Sequence record: OL362041.1
Length of the DNA stretch: 64,000 nucleotides
Direction: 5' to 3' (one strand)
Origin: Escherichia phage vB_Eco_OMNI12
Shown here: one piece after another, positions 27,982 to 34,410 of the stretch
Layout of the letters: every line of letters begins with the position of its first letter
Numbering within the stretch: the first letter of the stretch is position 1
Notes under the pieces: generated by a model
Seen by the model: the letters and a program-made list of their open reading frames with translations, nothing else
Databases searched by the model: none
What the model was told of the DNA's origin: nothing
Translations under genes and position numbers: made by a program

Positions 27982-30039
27982 TTATCCTTGAACGAACTTG
28001 TAAGGCATGTTTGCAATATCTATACAAGACGCAATAATTCCAAGAGATGATTCTACTTTCTGTTTAACATTTGATGAAACAAATGATGCAAAATCAACTC
28101 TGTCTTCTATTTCAATATCACCTGTCATTGTAACTACTTCGCCGGTTTCCATTAGACGGTCACCGTCATAAATTACCGATTCGGTGAGTTCTTCTGTGGT
28201 CATAACTTCAGCTTGAATAAGCTTGTTGTTAGTTTTAACTGTTCCATCATTGTAAGATGCATCGGTTATTTTATTAACTTTGACCATTAATCCACGTGGC
28301 AAAATGACTTCCATTTCATTTGAAGGTGCTAAACTTCCACCTGGTAAAACAACATTGACTTTATCAGCCCCAGTAATAACCCATCCAATTCCAACTAAAT
28401 TATCGCTAGAATTTACTAGTCCTTCATCAGTTTTATCAATAGAAACACTTAAACGCTTTTCGTCTGGTAAAACACCCACAGATGAATCAGTCATCCAGGT
28501 ACCAAAAATATTTGGATATAATGATGTTGACACAAAATTTCTAAAATAAAAAACTCGATTTTTTACCAGTGCTTCATATATTGAAGGTAACATTCGTTGT
28601 GAACGATACAAAGTAATACCTTTTGGTAATCGTTCACCATTTTTAAAGGCAGAATCTAAATTATCAATAGCTTTTTCTATATCAGATGCTGTCAAAATAC
28701 TTGTACGCTCATCTGGATTATATAATCCCAAAAGAGCGTTATTTATGTCTACATATCCTGAACTTACGTATTCACGAATTCCGCGTTTTTGTGCCGGTGT
28801 GTATTTAGATGAATCTTTATTTTCGACTATAGGATGTAGTGACCATCCAGCGGTAAGAGCATATCCACGCAATTCTCTTCGAATAATCTTTGTTTTTATT
28901 GCATTCCAAGAATTTTGTACTAACTCATTCGCAGCATCTTGATTTAAATGCGAATGCTTGTTAATGTTTCTTTCTAACCAAGCACCTTTATATTTTTCTA
29001 AAGTATCATCAACTATAGAAGCAATAGTTTCTAAAGTTTTTATTGAAGTAATAGATTCTTTTCGTAATCTTTCTAAAGCTTTATTTTTTATTTCTGCATT
29101 AACATCAGATTCTTTATCTTCAGGAATTATAGAAGCTTCTCTGAATGCCATTCCAGCTGTAACACTACTAAGAGCATTCTCTAATGCAAATCCTGAAGTA
29201 GAAATAACAGTTAATTCATTAGCGTCAGAAATTAAAGGAGCGTCAGCAGGTTTATTTAATTCTGCTGCTGAAGCCTCAAATTTTTGAAACATCGGCGTTT
29301 CAAATCTAGAAGATTCCAATGATTGACTTTGCGCAATTGCTCTACGGGAAATTTTAACTTTAACGATTACAGCTTGGTCAGAACGTTTATCATTTTCTTG
29401 TGCAATAGATGCTGCAATTGCCTCATTTTTGGTTACTTGAACTCCGGTATCTTTATTGATATAAACATCACCGACCTTCGATTCAACTTTAGTAAAGAGC
29501 TCGGTACTAATTTCCGGAACTCCTGGAATGTCTTCTAGTGATACATTTTTGCGATGTATAAGAATATATGCATACTTTTTATCATAATCCCAGAGTTCCT
29601 TAAGAAGGACGTATCTGCCACCTGAACGACTACGGATAAGTCTATCAGCAATAACTTGAATTTGTCGAGCTTGACCAGCGGTTTTAGACTTAAGAATACG
29701 AAGCATACAAGCATCAATTTTATACTGACGCATTGTTTGCATTGCAACAGTAAAAACTGAATTGATATAATTAATTGGGCTTGGACCAAGACCTTTTAAT
29801 TTAGCAATTGAACCTTTAGCAGTTAATGTAAAAGGAACAATATGCATCATTTTATCGCCCATCTTTAAATCGCGATTAGTATCACCTCCAGATGTATAGG
29901 TACATAAACGAAAACCTGGTTGTTCAATTGCATCATCAACATGAACTGAAAAAATTTGTGGTATTTTCTTCTTTGGATTTAAGTTTGTAATCGGAAGAGT
30001 AGTATCTTCGTCAAATAATTCTGTAATAAGTTCCATCAT
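27982..30039 (-). CDS. alt: Alt-like ADP-ribosyltransferase, paralog 2
   Basis: 685 aa; same N-terminus; ART motifs (TLYRSQ ... FVSTSL ... EMEVILPRG); late promoter upstream. Confidence 0.85.
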   Translation of the reverse strand: MMELITELFDEDTTLPITNLNPKKKIPQIFSVHVDDAIEQPGFRLCTYTSGGDTNRDLKMGDKMMHIVPFTLTAKGSIAKLKGLGPSPINYINSVFTVAMQTMRQYKIDACMLRILKSKTAGQARQIQVIADRLIRSRSGGRYVLLKELWDYDKKYAYILIHRKNVSLEDIPGVPEISTELFTKVESKVGDVYINKDTGVQVTKNEAIAASIAQENDKRSDQAVIVKVKISRRAIAQSQSLESSRFETPMFQKFEASAAELNKPADAPLISDANELTVISTSGFALENALSSVTAGMAFREASIIPEDKESDVNAEIKNKALERLRKESITSIKTLETIASIVDDTLEKYKGAWLERNINKHSHLNQDAANELVQNSWNAIKTKIIRRELRGYALTAGWSLHPIVENKDSSKYTPAQKRGIREYVSSGYVDINNALLGLYNPDERTSILTASDIEKAIDNLDSAFKNGERLPKGITLYRSQRMLPSIYEALVKNRVFYFRNFVSTSLYPNIFGTWMTDSSVGVLPDEKRLSVSIDKTDEGLVNSSDNLVGIGWVITGADKVNVVLPGGSLAPSNEMEVILPRGLMVKVNKITDASYNDGTVKTNNKLIQAEVMTTEELTESVIYDGDRLMETGEVVTMTGDIEIEDRVDFASFVSSNVKQKVESSLGIIASCIDIANMPYKFVQG

Positions 30040-30090: not shown

Positions 30091-30277
30091 AGTAATCTAG
30101 TGGTAAGAGAGTACGATATATTTCAAACTTTGGTCCTTTTTCATAGGCATCAAATGTTTCTGTAAATTTATTATAAGCGTATGCATCTACAAATTCGAGA
30201 ATGACTTGTGATACAGAAGTAGAAACATCTCCACCTTCTTTTTGAGCAATGACAATTGTTTCTAAGTAAGCTTTCAT
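30089..30277 (-). CDS. hypothetical small protein
   Basis: 62 aa ORF between gene 30 and alt, start overlaps stop of gene 30. Confidence 0.4.
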   Translation of the reverse strand: MKAYLETIVIAQKEGGDVSTSVSQVILEFVDAYAYNKFTETFDAYEKGPKFEIYRTLLPLDY

Positions 30278-31737
30278 AAACCAGTTACCTCATGAAAATC
30301 ACCAAATACATCCTCGAATGTATTAGCTTTAGTTTTATCTTCACGTAAACGAATCGCAATCGGAAGAAATAATTTAACGTAATCAGTGCGGCCATCAGAT
30401 TTTAACCAACCGTTGCATTCGCACTCTAGAATTTTTCCAATATAATAATTTTGGTTTTCCATAATGCGAGTACGGTCAAGTTCATGCGATTTTACACCGG
30501 CTTTATCTTTTAAGCCTGAACCAGCATTTACCTTAATTTTTCCACACTCTGATTCAAGAATAAATCCACCCGCTTTAGTAGGGTCTTTACGGTGAGGATA
30601 AATTCCTACAATTTTTAAATCAACATCAATTACTTCTTTAAATTTATAGAGATTTTTTGAACGAGCATTTTCCCACAATCCATCGGTATTTTTGAGAATA
30701 ATACCTTCAAGACCTTGGTCAATATACTTTTTATAAATTACCTTAGCTTCATCTAGGTTATTTACTACCTGGTTTTCAATTAAAATTACTTTATCATAAC
30801 CTGATGTCATTTGTTCTAGTTTAGAAAAACGTACATCATATTTCAAACGAAATGCAGGAAGACCGTATATTTCTACCAACGGGACATAATCCCAGACCTG
30901 AAACTTCATGCATTGAGCTTCTTTTTCAGAAATGGTTCCCTTTAAAGATTTATTGGCGATGCCATTAGATGCAGTACGTGATTCAGCTACTTCGGCGAAT
31001 TCTTTAGCTTTACTAATTTCAGGATAAGCATCAAAAAGAAAATCTAGGCCTTCTGGCTCCTTTTCAACTTGCTCATGGTATACCAATTCGCCATCAATTA
31101 ACACACCTTCTGGATGAATCTGGCGGGCTTCAGCAGTCATTTTGATTAACTCTTCCTTAAGAAGATCTAATCCTAGATATTCATTACCAGCTCGTGATAA
31201 AAGACGAACATCATCTAATTCATCACCTCTGACTTCAGCAAAACACCGAGCTCCATCAGCTTTTAACTGGGCAAAGGCTGGAAATTTGATATTCTTACTA
31301 ATGCCTTTTTCATCATAAGAACTTGCAAGCATTTGAGGTTGTTCAGGAATTAAACCTGGCCAAACTTTGTTTGCAATAGATACTGAAGCACCGCATTCAA
31401 GGTCTCGCATCATCACCCGACGCAAAACTTCAACATCATCTTTTTTACCGTCAGTAATATATCCAGTTAATTCCTCAATTGCCGCATTTCCAGTCAATTT
31501 CCGAGTAGCTAACGTGAATTCAATGAAGTCAAGCATATCGGTAAGAGTCAACATTCCAAAACTCTGGGTAGCAATACCCGGTTTAGGCCATTTCTTGATA
31601 TAATACTGTAACCCACGAGAATAAGTCAGACGATATACTCGTTTAAGCAATTCATTATCTTTATTCTTTTCAAGAATTGCTTGCTTCTGCTTAGTTGAAC
31701 CAATAGATGCTATTTCGCTCAGAATTTTAAGAATCAT
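30274..31737 (-). CDS. 30: ATP-dependent DNA ligase
   Basis: 487 aa as T4 ligase; adenylation motif KADG (AQLKADGARC). Confidence 0.9.
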   Translation of the reverse strand: MILKILSEIASIGSTKQKQAILEKNKDNELLKRVYRLTYSRGLQYYIKKWPKPGIATQSFGMLTLTDMLDFIEFTLATRKLTGNAAIEELTGYITDGKKDDVEVLRRVMMRDLECGASVSIANKVWPGLIPEQPQMLASSYDEKGISKNIKFPAFAQLKADGARCFAEVRGDELDDVRLLSRAGNEYLGLDLLKEELIKMTAEARQIHPEGVLIDGELVYHEQVEKEPEGLDFLFDAYPEISKAKEFAEVAESRTASNGIANKSLKGTISEKEAQCMKFQVWDYVPLVEIYGLPAFRLKYDVRFSKLEQMTSGYDKVILIENQVVNNLDEAKVIYKKYIDQGLEGIILKNTDGLWENARSKNLYKFKEVIDVDLKIVGIYPHRKDPTKAGGFILESECGKIKVNAGSGLKDKAGVKSHELDRTRIMENQNYYIGKILECECNGWLKSDGRTDYVKLFLPIAIRLREDKTKANTFEDVFGDFHEVTGL

Positions 31738-32003
31738 TGTTCATCCTTTAGAGTTTGGTTTACAGCTCTATTATAAATCAATTCATCATTAAGCTCAGTC
31801 AAAGACCTGTGGTACGTGGTTCTAACTTTATTTCCTTGCATCCAGTGCTTGACGTAAATGAAACCTTGCTCTACACATTTTTTAAAAATTCGTTCGTCTT
31901 TTTGAGCTCGGAATTCTGGATTGCATCTAAAAAATTGATTTACGTGACCGTAATCACGTGTAGTATTACCTTCATTTTCATAAATAGTATGAACAACAAA
32001 CAT
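31734..32003 (-). CDS. hypothetical protein (30.1-like position)
   Basis: 89 aa ORF translationally coupled to neighbours. Confidence 0.5.
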   Translation of the reverse strand: MFVVHTIYENEGNTTRDYGHVNQFFRCNPEFRAQKDERIFKKCVEQGFIYVKHWMQGNKVRTTYHRSLTELNDELIYNRAVNQTLKDEQ

Positions 32004-32857
32004 TAGAATGCTCCTTGGAAAATATTATCACCACTACCACTAGTAAGTCTATTAAAATACCCTGCATCGCCAGGCTTAATATAACTCCATGTATGAAATG
32101 GATGCACATGATATGGATGTGTATAATATGGATGATATGGATTATAAGGATTAAATCCAGGAGTTCTCCAAGTAGTGTTCCAACGAAAAGAATCGTTTTT
32201 AATCATCTTTTCAATTACATCTTTTATAGCTTTTTCACTATCAAAACTTTCTTTATTTTCCTTTGGTGAAAAAAGCTTATTTTCTACATCATTCCATGTA
32301 TAAACTCGCTGTGCAGTTTTTGGAATACTGTCACGCTCCCCTCGAGCCATCCAATAAACTGGAACATTTAATATTTCACTCGCATGATCGCAGTGGTGAG
32401 CGAGATCGTCAATATAACAAATCACGTTATATTTCTCTTTTGCCTTTTTGAACAACTCTTCTTTTGAAGAATCATGACCACACATCATTACTTCTGAGAA
32501 GGCACCAGGAAAAAGAGCATTCAAATTAAATTGACGATTCAACAGAGCGTCAATAGAATCACCCAGCGCTGTAACAGCTACAAAATTATAATCTTCTTTT
32601 AATTTGTTAATTACACACAGGGCATCTTTATATGGAGACAAGTAACGAATAAAATCTGAACGATTGTATTTTTCAATTAACTTGACGCCAAGTTCTTCAT
32701 CACAATTAAAGAGTTTACCAGGAGAAATAAATTTCTCATCTTGGATCATTTTTAAAATATGTTCTAACGGAAGATTATATTTCTGAGCAAAATAAGGAAG
32801 GCCTGATTGCCAGCTTAAACATACTCCATCAATATCAGTTAAAATAGTAGGCTTCAT
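32003..32857 (-). CDS. HAD-superfamily phosphatase-like protein with His/Pro/Tyr-rich C-terminal tail
   Basis: 284 aa; N-terminal DxD motif (LTDIDGV); tail NPYNPYHPYYTHPYHVHPFHTW. Confidence 0.55.
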   Translation of the reverse strand: MKPTILTDIDGVCLSWQSGLPYFAQKYNLPLEHILKMIQDEKFISPGKLFNCDEELGVKLIEKYNRSDFIRYLSPYKDALCVINKLKEDYNFVAVTALGDSIDALLNRQFNLNALFPGAFSEVMMCGHDSSKEELFKKAKEKYNVICYIDDLAHHCDHASEILNVPVYWMARGERDSIPKTAQRVYTWNDVENKLFSPKENKESFDSEKAIKDVIEKMIKNDSFRWNTTWRTPGFNPYNPYHPYYTHPYHVHPFHTWSYIKPGDAGYFNRLTSGSGDNIFQGAF

Positions 32858-33318
32858 AGAGAGTCTCTTAATAGGTTTAACACATCAATAAATTCAGCTT
32901 CGGTTAATATTGTATCATCTTTTGTTAGACCACTAGCCATGCTGTGCTTCAAAACTTTTCCTTTCGAGGCGTGTAATGCATCACGAAAGCCCTTGTTTTG
33001 GATCGCTGCTTCAAAATATGCATTTGTGTATAATTCTTTCCATGCTGGGGAGTATCTTGAAAACGGAACTCCAAGCCAGAAGAGGGTCCCACGGTCCTGA
33101 GCTCTAGCATAAGACCTTCCAGCTTGTTGGGCGGCAAGCCCGGATAACCCAAATATACGACGTTGTTGTTCAGCATTTTTCACCTTGCATCCTTGGAAGA
33201 ATCCTTCAAGACCTCCGAATTGAATACCATCCATGACGAAAGGCCATTGGGCGAAATTACTTAATGCACACGATGGCCATCTAAAATTGCTTCTAATCTC
33301 TAACTCAGACATTTTCAA
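32854..33318 (-). CDS. NADAR / YbiA-like (DUF1768) domain protein
   Basis: 154 aa; motif LSNFAQWPFVMDG...EGFFQGCK resembles YbiA FSNFAAWP..DG...EHYFQAQK (from memory). Confidence 0.55.
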   Translation of the reverse strand: MKMSELEIRSNFRWPSCALSNFAQWPFVMDGIQFGGLEGFFQGCKVKNAEQQRRIFGLSGLAAQQAGRSYARAQDRGTLFWLGVPFSRYSPAWKELYTNAYFEAAIQNKGFRDALHASKGKVLKHSMASGLTKDDTILTEAEFIDVLNLLRDSL

Positions 33319-33511
33319 TACTTATAATTTCAACATCAGCCCAATGACCATAGCAAGGAAGACGAAATTCAACTGGCCAGTTAGGGTCCTTTTCTAATAT
33401 AATAGACTTAACTTGTGGTTCTTCATGTTCATCAGTATATGGATTTTTATCTGTTACTTTATATGTGACCTTAATGTACTGAATTCCAAAAATCTTATTA
33501 ATTATATTCAT
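33305..33511 (-). CDS. hypothetical protein
   Basis: 68 aa ORF in packed 30.x block. Confidence 0.4.
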   Translation of the reverse strand: MNIINKIFGIQYIKVTYKVTDKNPYTDEHEEPQVKSIILEKDPNWPVEFRLPCYGHWADVEIISIENV

Positions 33512-33705
33512 ACTAATTCCTTTAATCCGTAGATAGGAGATAATTCATCGCCCATACGAAGGTCTTCATTTCCATCTACCCAAGAAACAATATAAGCCTC
33601 TTTTATTTGAATACCACTCCATTTAAACGGAGGTAGAACCTTAGAAATTAATCCAGGTATACCAACTCCCTTTAATTCAACAGTTTGACCTAAAAAGAAT
33701 TTCAT
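33508..33705 (-). CDS. hypothetical protein
   Basis: 65 aa ORF in packed 30.x block. Confidence 0.4.
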   Translation of the reverse strand: MKFFLGQTVELKGVGIPGLISKVLPPFKWSGIQIKEAYIVSWVDGNEDLRMGDELSPIYGLKELV

Positions 33706-34043
33706 TAAAACCTCATCTGAAAACCGTGCGATTTAACATTACCGCCATTAATATCAGAACTATTAATTTCACGTGCAATTGAGGGATCAATGTCAATTTC
33801 GCGATTGAGTTTAGTGATAGCTAAAGTATCGCGCCCATTTACAGTACGGAACTCTAAAGGGCAGACTACATTAACGTAGTTTTTAATCGATTCACTGGTA
33901 GGTTGCAAATGTGCAGGAAGGTCTTTAGGCGCCTTTGAGAAAACTACTTCGCAGAAGTTTTTACGGGTATCAAAATAAGTAGTCATAAACATAACATTTT
34001 CCTCAGTAAGGGGCCAAAGCCCCTCATTTATTTTAAATATCAA
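33705..34043 (-). CDS. hypothetical protein
   Basis: 112 aa ORF in packed 30.x block. Confidence 0.45.
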   Translation of the reverse strand: MIFKINEGLWPLTEENVMFMTTYFDTRKNFCEVVFSKAPKDLPAHLQPTSESIKNYVNVVCPLEFRTVNGRDTLAITKLNREIDIDPSIAREINSSDINGGNVKSHGFQMRF

Positions 34044-34410
34044 ATTCGTTAAGAACTACATCAAAGATTGCTTCAAGATGCTCAGGTTTAGCTCTGTTAC
34101 TCAGAATATGACGAATCCAAGTTTTAACCAAAAGCTTGCGATTAACGCCATTCCAGCAAGGATGAGTCCCTAAATCGCGTTCACGGAAATCATCATCCAG
34201 AGCGATTTTAAAGTTGGAACCTTCCATCGTGATTGAAACCGTGATACCGTTTTCAAATCGCATATAAACGTAATTAGGAGTCATATACTGCTCAATTTCG
34301 CATACTGATCCATTTTGATGTTTCCAAAGGCAAATAGTATCAATAGAACCTGCAATACTATTAGAAACATATTTACGTTCAAAGTTGATGTAGTTCATTT
34401 TATTCTCCAA
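34033..34410 (-). CDS. hypothetical protein
   Basis: 125 aa ORF; hairpin GGTACAGG/CCTGTACC upstream. Confidence 0.45.
   Translation of the reverse strand: MENKMNYINFERKYVSNSIAGSIDTICLWKHQNGSVCEIEQYMTPNYVYMRFENGITVSITMEGSNFKIALDDDFRERDLGTHPCWNGVNRKLLVKTWIRHILSNRAKPEHLEAIFDVVLNEFDI

What the first reader, a model, noticed from the sequence alone, without database searches (positions are those of the whole stretch)
32003..32857. HAD-like phosphatase with an unusual His/Pro/Tyr-rich C-terminal tail
The N-terminal DIDGV motif indicates a HAD-superfamily fold. The last ~60 residues are low-complexity (NPYNPYHPYYTHPYHVHPFHTW), reminiscent of metal-binding or phase-separating tails, and the gene is translationally coupled to the NADAR-like ORF.
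Basis: seen in the sequence. Interest (0 to 1): 0.35.

Follow-up and report, generated by a model that had tools for sequence, protein, structure and literature searches.

The report
T4 gene 30.2 phosphatase, floppy tail
This is the T2/T4-phage gene 30.2: an uncharacterised nucleotidase-like HAD phosphatase with a real but fast-evolving, disordered, repeat-length-variable tail, and what the family conserves in that tail is a short end motif, not the histidines.

Summary
The ORF at 32003..32857 (- strand, 284 aa) is real. It is the ortholog of phage T4 gene 30.2 in a Tequatrovirus genome, between AdfN (30.3) and 30.1/DNA ligase. Residues 1-195 form a C1-capped HAD fold with all four catalytic motifs invariant. 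The nearest relatives by structure and by linked sequence searches are 5'(3')-deoxyribonucleotidases (NT5C). The protein itself hits no Pfam model.

The tail is not a frameshift. It is kept in frame in hundreds of phages, is predicted disordered, and evolves about ten times faster than the core. Its length varies through copy number of an NPYYTHPY unit (278-295 aa).

His-richness is confined to the T2-type allele carried here. Across genera the enriched residues are Pro and Trp, and many tails end in a short motif ([IVL]-E-[YW]-hydrophobic, or LRAYY). The window's allele has a degenerate version, GDAGYF.

The 4-nt ATGA overlap with the NADAR gene is confirmed, but the conserved neighbour across T4-like phages is DNA ligase, not AdfN.

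Best reading: a nucleotide monophosphatase tethered through a flexible tail to an unknown partner. A resemblance of the motif to the gp45 clamp-binding motif LDFLF is only a lead. Substrate and partner are untested.

The parts
32003..32857 (-). Gene 30.2 CDS (284 aa plus TAA stop), T2-type allele
   Evidence: ORF. 98.6% nt identity to Tequatrovirus G29. Matches RB32 '30.2' and T4 gp30.2. PHROG 420, E = 4.6e-91.
32273..32857 (-). HAD core with C1 helical cap (residues 1-195)
   Evidence: pLDDT above 90. The beta1 - five-helix cap (residues 14-73) - Rossmannoid layout is. Foldseek matches to HAD / deoxyribonucleotidase structures. dN/dS 0.01-0.06.
32822..32836 (-). HAD motif I, DIDGV (D8 nucleophile, D10 acid/base)
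   Evidence: D8 and D10 are invariant in 50 homologs. Also conserved: T96 (motif II), K132 (motif III), D150-D151 (motif IV).
32186..32272 (-). Linker with amphipathic helix (residues 196-224; helix 207-220)
   Evidence: AF2 secondary structure. An equivalent helix is present in most tail-bearing homologs.
32006..32185 (-). Disordered Pro/aromatic-rich tail (residues 225-284)
   Evidence: pLDDT below 50 for residues 225-235 and 245-284 (block means 42-53). dN/dS 0.15-0.73. In-frame indels only.
32087..32152 (-). xPY / NPYYTHPY repeat (residues 236-257), variable in copy number between phages
   Evidence: TRF period 9 and 15 at 32093-32153. One to three copies in T4, the window, HMD-9 and BYEP01.
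32042..32071 (-). Degenerate terminal motif GDAGYFNRLT (residues 263-272); T4 allele has GGIEYLYNRPT
   Evidence: Alignments. The motif [IVL]E[YW]-hydrophobic is in 33/163 homologs against 0.66 in shuffles.
32011..32016 (-). AAGGAG Shine-Dalgarno of gene 30.1, inside the last codons (Q-G-A) of 30.2
   Evidence: Sequence CCAAGGAGCATTCTAATG read. These columns are invariant in the DNA alignment.
32854..32857 (-). ATGA overlap: stop of 30.3 (AdfN) and start of 30.2
   Evidence: The same overlap (d=1) is seen in Tequatro-, Mosig- and Dhaka-like loci.
32854..33318 (-). Gene 30.3 = AdfN, NADAR ADP-ribosylglycohydrolase (context)
   Evidence: PF08010, E = 8.7e-69. Function from PMC11825919.
31734..32003 (-). 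Gene 30.1 (DUF3045), immediately downstream (context)
   Evidence: PF11243, E = 2.9e-64.
30274..31737 (-). Gene 30, ATP-dependent DNA ligase with gp45-binding loop EPEGLDFLFD (conserved neighbour)
   Evidence: ORF. Loop motif. Ligase lies next to or close to the 30.2 homolog in most of the 78 loci (70 within ~600 nt downstream).

Best explanation
The gene is the Tequatrovirus ortholog (T2-type allele) of T4 gene 30.2.

Core. Residues 1-195 form a Mg2+-dependent HAD phosphatase of the C1-capped type, a divergent, almost phage-only branch related to the NT5C 5'(3')-deoxyribonucleotidases. By the established HAD mechanism, D8 would form the phospho-aspartyl intermediate and D10 would act as acid/base. 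T96 and K132 would hold the phosphate, and D150/D151 the metal. The closed helical cap and invariant W16 (aligned with the base-stacking Phe of cdN) point to a small (deoxy)nucleoside monophosphate as substrate. The gene is expressed with the replication genes, directly upstream of DNA ligase.

Tail. Residues 196-284 consist of an amphipathic helix followed by an intrinsically disordered Pro/Tyr/Trp-rich linker. The linker changes length by slippage of a 9/24-bp repeat. Many homologs end in a short hydrophobic-aromatic motif (T4: IEYLY; here degenerate, AGYF) that most likely docks onto another protein.

Shown here: fold, motif conservation, disorder, repeat polymorphism, motif enrichment, synteny.
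Inferred: the substrate class, and that the tail acts as a tether.
For: - Identity: (T4 gp30.2, RB32 30.2).
- HAD motifs invariant in 50 homologs and D8/D10/K132/D151 still at least 90% conserved in a 143-sequence alignment (142 remote relatives plus the window).
- The AF2 core is confident.
- Foldseek PDB top compact matches are cdN/mdN and a deoxyribonucleotidase-like protein, TMt 0.63-0.70. BFVD hits include phage '5' nucleotidase' entries and the PhiW-14 nucleotidase.
- 2jao is the top PDB sequence hit both by single sequence and by profile, though marginal: E = 1.5 and 0.15.
- 46 of 143 alignment members scanned (142 relatives from the all-vs-profile search plus the window) hit Pfam NT5C, best E = 4.2e-10.
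- Tail: disordered in two models, with a mini-helix at IEYLN in P0046.
- Only in-frame indels. Repeat copy-number series 278/284/287/295 aa. dN/dS in the tail is 0.15-0.73 against 0.01-0.06 in the core.
- Motif enrichment is 33 observed against 0.66 expected, and 20 against 0.03. The motif is also kept in 212-aa proteins with almost no linker (AVEWIARG).
- Ligase lies next to or close to the gene in most of 78 loci.
Against: - The window protein itself hits no Pfam or NCBIfam HAD or NT5C model. Direct sequence similarity to cdN is not significant.
- No experiment on gp30.2 was found in the searched library.
- The substrate is unknown. Invariant R108 and R172 have no assigned role.
- About 45% of homologs lack the tail. 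The window/T2 allele (about 30% of Tequatrovirus records) has lost the I-E of the motif, so the motif is not indispensable.
- One metagenomic T-even contig has the whole HAD core deleted, so the gene is dispensable under some conditions.
- Tail dN/dS approaches 1 in distant comparisons.
Confidence: 0.6

Rival explanations
1. The tail is a functionless, drifting 3' extension. It would be tolerated because it is disordered, and kept in frame only because the gene's end must deliver ribosomes to the overlapping Shine-Dalgarno and start of the next gene.
For: - Tail dN/dS is up to 0.7-0.9.
- The tail is absent in about 45% of homologs.
- The motif is degenerate in the T2-type allele.
- The last codons contain the AAGGAG Shine-Dalgarno of 30.1.
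Against: - Terminal motifs are retained across genera whose linkers cannot be aligned (33 against 0.66 expected).
- Close comparisons give dN/dS of 0.15-0.3.
- Tails of 70-130 aa persist in many genera.
Confidence: 0.25
2. The tail carries a sliding-clamp (gp45) binding motif and recruits the nucleotidase to the replisome, as the neighbouring ligase is recruited by its LDFLF loop.
For: - T4 gp45 binders use LDFLF as a short amphipathic helix (PMC6212786).
- The T4-allele motif IEYLY has the same aliphatic-acidic-aromatic-aliphatic-aromatic pattern, sits near the end of a disordered tail, and is predicted as a mini-helix.
- Phages whose ligase loop reads DLFGMFEE have 30.2 tails ending DLRAYYGE.
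Against: - The match is five residues only.
- It has Tyr/Trp where the clamp binders seen here (T4 gp43 C-terminus, T4 ligase loop and the ligase loops) have Phe.
- Klebsiella-type motifs (IEYLN) lack the last aromatic residue.
- The window allele lacks I-E.
- No complex prediction or binding data were available.
Confidence: 0.2
3. gp30.2 is a DNA-end 3'-phosphatase that prepares nicks for the adjacent DNA ligase, like the HAD domain of polynucleotide kinase-phosphatase.
For: - Conserved adjacency to ligase, often with overlapping stop and start.
- Weak PHROG hit to polynucleotide kinase, E = 0.0033.
- PNKP phosphatases appear low in the BFVD list.
Against: - The model has a closed five-helix C1 cap, typical of small-molecule HADs.
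- PNKP-type matches are much weaker than nucleotidase matches.
- Only 1 of 143 alignment members scanned hits HAD_PNKP.
- T4 already has PseT (own knowledge).
Confidence: 0.08
4. gp30.2 is the unidentified T-even factor that AdfN (gp30.3) needs for full anti-DarTG1 activity, and the tail mediates their contact.
For: - ATGA translational coupling.
- The AdfN paper reports full activity only during T-even infection and proposes an extra phage protein.
Against: - Many tail-bearing 30.2 homologs have no 30.3 within 5 kb. In other genera 30.3 lies 0.5-1.2 kb away.
- AdfN removes ADP-ribose from DNA in vitro on its own.
- No chemical role for a phosphatase is evident.
Confidence: 0.05
5. The His/Tyr-rich tail is a metal-binding segment.
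For: There are 5 His within 14 residues in this allele.
Against: The T4 allele has 3 His and other genera have essentially none: 2.1% against 1.6% background. The trait is therefore not conserved.
Confidence: 0.05

Closest known systems
5'(3')-deoxyribonucleotidases cdN/mdN (NT5C family, Pfam PF06941; PDB 2jao, 2i7d, 1q92, 3bwv)
   Same: C1-capped HAD fold. DxDGV motif I followed by an aromatic residue (W16 here, Phe in cdN). About 195-aa core. These are the best compact structural matches and the top (marginal) PDB sequence hit. A third of remote relatives hit this Pfam model.
   Different: The window protein does not reach the Pfam model at all. Identity is 13-20%. The family is phage-restricted. 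It has extra invariant residues (S18, Y64, S67, R108, N111, R172). It carries a C-terminal disordered tail that NT5C enzymes lack.
T4 gp30.2 / PHROG 420 (uncharacterised conserved phage protein)
   Same: Ortholog: 89.5% aa identity, same position between 30.3 and 30.1/30.
   Different: The T4 allele is 278 aa, has one repeat unit and the intact IEYLY motif. The window carries the T2-type allele, with extra HPY units and GDAGYF.
gp45 sliding-clamp-binding motifs of T4 (gp43 C-terminus EKASLDFLFG, ligase loop EPEGLDFLFD)
   Same: A short amphipathic hydrophobic-acidic-aromatic motif in a flexible segment of a replication-associated protein.
   Different: Tyr/Trp instead of Phe, followed by N-[RQ]-P-T. 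Binding was not tested, so this is a resemblance only.
HAD 3'-phosphatase domain of polynucleotide kinase-phosphatase (T4 PseT; Pfam HAD_PNKP)
   Same: A HAD phosphatase encoded by T4-like phages and functionally linked to a ligase.
   Different: PNKP HAD domains are cap-less and act on polynucleotide ends (own knowledge). This protein has a full C1 cap and matches PNKP only weakly.

Membership tests
HAD (haloacid dehalogenase-like) phosphatase superfamily | Motif I DxDx(T/V) at the end of strand 1 | tested here: met
   D8-I-D10-G-V. D8 and D10 are invariant in 50 homologs and at least 90% conserved in the 143-sequence alignment of remote relatives.
HAD (haloacid dehalogenase-like) phosphatase superfamily | Motif II (S/T), motif III (K/R) and motif IV (DD or DxxxD) in the right order | tested here: met
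   T96 (at least 90% conserved), K132 invariant, D150-D151 invariant.
HAD (haloacid dehalogenase-like) phosphatase superfamily | Rossmannoid alpha/beta core fold | tested here: met
   AF2 pLDDT above 90 for residues 1-195. 102 PDB matches with E of 0.001 or less; the 50 listed are almost all HAD-superfamily enzymes.
HAD (haloacid dehalogenase-like) phosphatase superfamily | Match to a curated HAD profile (Pfam Hydrolase, HAD_2; NCBIfam) | tested here: not met
   No HAD family at E of 1 or less for the window protein. Only remote relatives hit Hydrolase (24) and HAD_2 (23).
HAD (haloacid dehalogenase-like) phosphatase superfamily | Mg2+-dependent phosphatase activity | not testable with these tools
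   Needs an enzyme assay.
NT5C 5'(3')-deoxyribonucleotidase family (PF06941) | Significant match to the PF06941 profile | tested here: not met
   No hit for the window protein. 46 of 143 alignment members scanned hit it, best E = 4.2e-10. The link is transitive only.
NT5C 5'(3')-deoxyribonucleotidase family (PF06941) | C1 four/five-helix cap inserted right after motif I, with an aromatic base-stacking residue after DxDGV | tested here: met
   Helices at 16-26, 32-40, 46-49, 54-65 and 68-72 lie between strand 1 and motif II. W16 is invariant and aligned to the Phe of 2jao.
NT5C 5'(3')-deoxyribonucleotidase family (PF06941) | Closest structural neighbours are family members | tested here: inconclusive
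   cdN, mdN and 3bwv give the best TMt (0.63-0.70) and rmsd. By E-value, other HAD IA enzymes (epoxysuccinate hydrolase, dehalogenase, YfnB) rank equally.
NT5C 5'(3')-deoxyribonucleotidase family (PF06941) | Hydrolysis of dNMPs | not testable with these tools
   Needs substrate profiling.
gp45 sliding-clamp interactors of T4-like phages | LDFLF-type motif in a flexible segment | tested here: inconclusive
   The T4 allele has IEYLY and the window has AGYF. The pattern is similar but no residue is identical except Leu.
gp45 sliding-clamp interactors of T4-like phages | Physical binding to gp45 | not testable with these tools
   No complex prediction or binding assay was available.

The most novel reading that the evidence does not exclude
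The variable tail is a length-tunable tether whose terminal motif (IEYLY, LRAYY and similar) docks the nucleotidase onto the gp45 sliding clamp or another replisome protein. That would place a dNMP-destroying 'house-cleaning' enzyme at the replication fork next to ligase. One possible role is removing host-derived modified or unwanted dNMPs that could be mis-incorporated or sensed by nucleotide-triggered defences; m6-dAMP sensing by PUA-Cal-HAD was reported in bioRxiv 10.64898/2026.01.15.699771.
Probability: 0.15. Interest if true: 0.55.

Novelty: new member of a known kind. Interest (0 to 1): 0.3.

Why it matters
gp30.2 is one of the conserved, still unassigned genes of T4-type phages. It sits between an anti-defence enzyme (AdfN) and DNA ligase.

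Placing it as an NT5C-like nucleotidase gives a concrete assay to run. The conserved element of the tail turns out to be a short terminal motif, not the histidines, so peptide pull-downs against gp45, gp32 and ligase are the obvious next step.

The NPYYTHPY copy-number series is also a small natural example of linker-length variation in a phage protein.

None of this overturns current knowledge. The gene is probably non-essential.

Tried and rejected
- **Direct family searches.** Pfam and NCBIfam gave nothing for the window protein. PDB sequence searches gave only marginal hits.
- **Frameshift or sequencing error.** Rejected: only in-frame 3- and 6-nt indels separate the window from T4-like alleles, and 444 phage records carry the tail.
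- **Intramolecular docking of the tail.** Two AF2 runs, one with a tail-matched alignment, gave pLDDT below 50 for the tail.
- **Tail motif as a module shared with other proteins.** A profile search of 5.8 billion proteins returned only 30.2 fragments, one 30.7::30.2 deletion chimera, and one unrelated 77-aa protein ending TGIEYLNNQP (E = 7.4, possibly chance).
- **Tail motif elsewhere in the window.** None found.
- **Fusion partners among remote relatives.** No Pfam domains in the longer proteins.
- **Cellular homologs.** One hit in 185,579 species genomes, on a 178-kb contig that looks like phage contamination.
- **Promoter or terminator signals in the tail DNA.** Not above chance.
- **Literature.** Nothing on gp30.2 function. 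The T4 genome review (PMC150520) is not held in the library.
- **gp45-type motifs in the window.** A regex scan found only the ligase loop.

Full report
**What the window is.** The region is 97-98.6% identical in DNA to Tequatrovirus genomes such as Escherichia phage vB_EcoM_G29. On the - strand the gene order is alt (27982-30039), gene 30 DNA ligase (30274-31737), 30.1 (DUF3045, 31734-32003), the finding (32003-32857), 30.3 (PF08010, 32854-33318), 30.4 and onward to rIII and gene 31. The finding is therefore the ortholog of T4 gene 30.2. It is labelled '30.2' in RB32 and 'gp30.2 conserved hypothetical protein' in T4 MT984581, at 89.5% amino-acid identity. It belongs to PHROG 420, 'unknown function'.

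**Observation check.** The ORF, the DIDGV motif (residues 8-12) and the string NPYNPYHPYYTHPYHVHPFHTW (residues 236-257) are all present. The best 24-residue stretch in this region (238-261) has 16 H/P/Y. The next-best stretch in any ORF of the window has 11, and the background is about 9%. The DNA beneath is an imperfect 9/15-bp tandem repeat at 32093-32153. The start overlaps the stop of 30.3 as ATGA. The stop shares a base with the ATG of 30.1.

**The core is a HAD phosphatase.** In an alignment of 50 homologs, D8 and D10 (motif I), K132 (motif III) and D150-D151 (motif IV) are invariant. T96 (motif II) is at least 90% conserved. D8, D10, K132 and D151 remain at least 90% conserved in a 143-sequence alignment (142 more distant relatives plus the window). 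The AlphaFold2 model has pLDDT above 90 for residues 1-195. It shows strand 1, a five-helix cap (residues 14-73) and then the Rossmannoid core, which is a C1-capped HAD.

Foldseek against the PDB gives 102 matches with E of 0.001 or less; the 50 listed are almost all HAD-superfamily enzymes. The most compact superpositions are mouse and human 5'(3')-deoxyribonucleotidases and a deoxyribonucleotidase-like protein (2jao, 2i7d, 4yih, 1q92, 3bwv; TMt 0.63-0.70). Other HAD IA enzymes have similar E-values. Against viral models, the hits include phage '5' nucleotidase' entries and the PhiW-14 nucleotidase.

By sequence, the window protein hits no Pfam or NCBIfam HAD model. Its best PDB hit is 2jao at a non-significant E (1.5 for the single sequence, 0.15 for the profile). 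In that alignment W16 pairs with the Phe that follows DMDGV in cdN.

A profile search of 1.84 billion representative proteins found 1343 relatives with E of 0.001 or less. Of the 143 alignment members scanned (142 of those relatives plus the window protein), 46 hit Pfam NT5C (best E = 4.2e-10), 24 hit Hydrolase and 23 hit HAD_2. I therefore place gp30.2 as a divergent branch related to NT5C-type nucleotidases. It is not a demonstrated member of PF06941.

The family is essentially phage-only. There was one hit in 185,579 species genomes, on a 178-kb contig that looks like a T4-like phage. Remote members sit in jumbo-phage or phage-like replication neighbourhoods, near a clamp loader, PolA and a PDDEXK nuclease.

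**The tail is real, disordered and repeat-polymorphic.** Compared with T4-like alleles, the window differs only by in-frame indels of 6, 6, 3 and 6 nt, so there is no frameshift. Tequatrovirus alleles form a copy-number series of the unit NPYYTHPY:
- T4: 278 aa, about one unit
- the window: 284 aa
- HMD-9: 287 aa, two units
- BYEP01: 295 aa, three units

A tblastn search with the last 30 residues found 444 records. About 130 carry the window-like allele, including phage T2 at 93%. About 310 carry the T4-like allele.

Both AF2 models give pLDDT below 50 for the tail. One of them used an alignment restricted to homologs with alignable tails. An amphipathic helix precedes the disordered stretch, at residues 207-220 in the window protein. 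Nei-Gojobori dN/dS is 0.01-0.06 in the core and 0.15-0.73 in the tail for close pairs.

**What is conserved in the tail.** Of 163 distinct homologs with an alignable core, about 45% have fewer than 30 residues after the core. The rest have tails of 30-148 residues that cannot be aligned between genera. Pooled distal tails are rich in Pro (13%) and Trp (4.4%) but not His (2.1% against 1.6% background). His-richness is therefore a feature of the T2-type allele only.

What recurs is a short motif near the C-terminus. [IVL]-E-[YW]-hydrophobic, usually followed by N/R-Q-P-T, occurs in 33/163 sequences against 0.66 in shuffles. It appears in T4 as GGIEYLYNRPT, in Mosigvirus-like loci as GTGIEYWYNQPT, and in Klebsiella-type phages as GTGIEYLNRQPT. 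It also appears in 212-aa proteins with almost no linker, as AVEWIARG. A second class ends in LRAYY or LRA[ST]F (20/163 against 0.03). These counts are inflated by relatedness. Even so, the motif survives where the surrounding sequence does not. The window allele has a degenerate version, GDAGYF-NRLT.

The last codons of the gene (CAA GGA GCA TTC) contain the AAGGAG Shine-Dalgarno of gene 30.1. This explains part of the invariance of the extreme C-terminus.

**Context.** In 78 loci from IMG/VR, 70 have the ligase gene within about 600 nt downstream of the 30.2 homolog, often with overlapping stop and start. Four more have it 1.2-1.5 kb downstream and three have it about 700 nt upstream. The pattern extends to Acinetobacter-, Aeromonas- and Vibrio-type relatives.

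30.3 is adjacent only in Tequatro-, Mosig- and Dhaka-like loci. It is 0.5-1.2 kb away in others, and undetected near many tail-bearing homologs (L026-L047).

30.3 is AdfN, a characterised NADAR enzyme that removes DarT1 ADP-ribosylation from phage DNA. That paper notes AdfN is fully active only in T-even infections and may need another phage protein (PMC11825919). gp30.2 is a candidate by position only, and the distribution argues against a general dependence.

**Mechanism.** Shown: HAD fold, catalytic residues, C1 cap, disorder, repeat polymorphism, motif enrichment, synteny with ligase. Inferred from HAD enzymology: phospho-aspartyl catalysis on a small phosphomonoester, most likely a (deoxy)nucleoside monophosphate. 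Inferred from architecture: the tail acts as a flexible tether ending in a docking motif.

One lead concerns the partner. T4 proteins bind the gp45 clamp through LDFLF (gp43 EKASLDFLFG, ligase EPEGLDFLFD), which forms a short amphipathic helix (PMC6212786). The window ligase has this loop. IEYLY has the same residue-class pattern and is predicted as a mini-helix in P0046. Phages whose ligase loop reads DLFGMFEE have tails ending DLRAYYGE. This is a five-residue resemblance and was not tested. I give it about 0.2.

**What failed or was rejected.** There is no intramolecular docking of the tail. The motif is not a module shared with other protein families, apart from one 77-aa protein ending TGIEYLNNQP beside a folD gene, which may be chance. 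There are no informative domain fusions. Promoter and terminator signals are not above chance. No literature on gp30.2 function was found.

**Verdict.** The HAD call is correct and can be sharpened to an NT5C-like nucleotidase. The tail is genuine but is better described as a disordered, slippage-prone linker with a partly conserved terminal motif than as a His-rich metal-binding segment. The gene is a long-known but uncharacterised T-even ORF, so novelty is modest. Interest is 0.3.

Noticed in passing
L102 270-482 (Logan ERR13962969 contig, 2109 nt); corresponds to window about 32006-34398: This is a 70-aa ORF (P0103). The first 52 residues of gp30.7 are fused in frame, at 'ENGI|EYL', to the last 18 residues of gp30.2, and the ORF is followed by 30.1 and ligase. 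It looks like a natural 2-kb deletion that removes 30.6-30.3 (including AdfN) and the HAD core of 30.2, or else an assembly chimera.
   Followed up: partly
L090 6001-6234 (ENA ERZ27297761 contig, 24 kb): A 77-aa protein (P0104) in a phage-like contig overlaps the stop of a folD (THF dehydrogenase/cyclohydrolase) gene. It ends in TGIEYLNNQPMC, the same motif as the Klebsiella-phage 30.2 tails. E = 7.4, so it may be coincidence.
   Followed up: partly
window 32854-33318 (-): The upstream ORF is T4 gp30.3 = AdfN, a characterised anti-DarTG1 NADAR ADP-ribosylglycohydrolase. It is full length here (ends ...LLRDSL), unlike the truncated RB69 allele described in PMC11825919.
   Followed up: partly
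window 32498-32515 (residues 115-120) and 32006-32023 (residues 279-284), - strand: The extreme C-terminus NIFQGAF echoes the largely invariant internal core segment ALFPGAF (F116, P117 and F120 invariant; L115 and A119 at least 90%). This may be coincidence. The C-terminal copy is also constrained by the Shine-Dalgarno of 30.1.
   Followed up: no
L091 (NZ_JBHSCL010000010.1, 178,077 bp, 'Flagellimonas marina' assembly): This is the only hit in the species-genome collection. The contig has the size of a T4-like phage genome and encodes a tail-less 30.2 homolog (48% identity). It is probably a phage genome or contaminant within a bacterial assembly.
   Followed up: no
P0076 (Acinetobacter phage AB1I1M-1), P0015 (Logan contig): P0076, a 216-aa 30.2 homolog, is named 'DNA ligase' by its source, which looks like a mis-transferred neighbour annotation. 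P0015 (302 aa) is a 30.2 core fused to a DUF3045 (30.1) domain, either a natural fusion or a frameshift.
   Followed up: no
L045, L084, P0066, P0069 (Yersinia phage phiR1-RT-like): In these phages the Pro/aromatic tail is replaced by a different C-terminal segment of about 110 aa that looks folded (...KHPKGFGWVY...EEYTKRFL). It has no Pfam hit.
   Followed up: no
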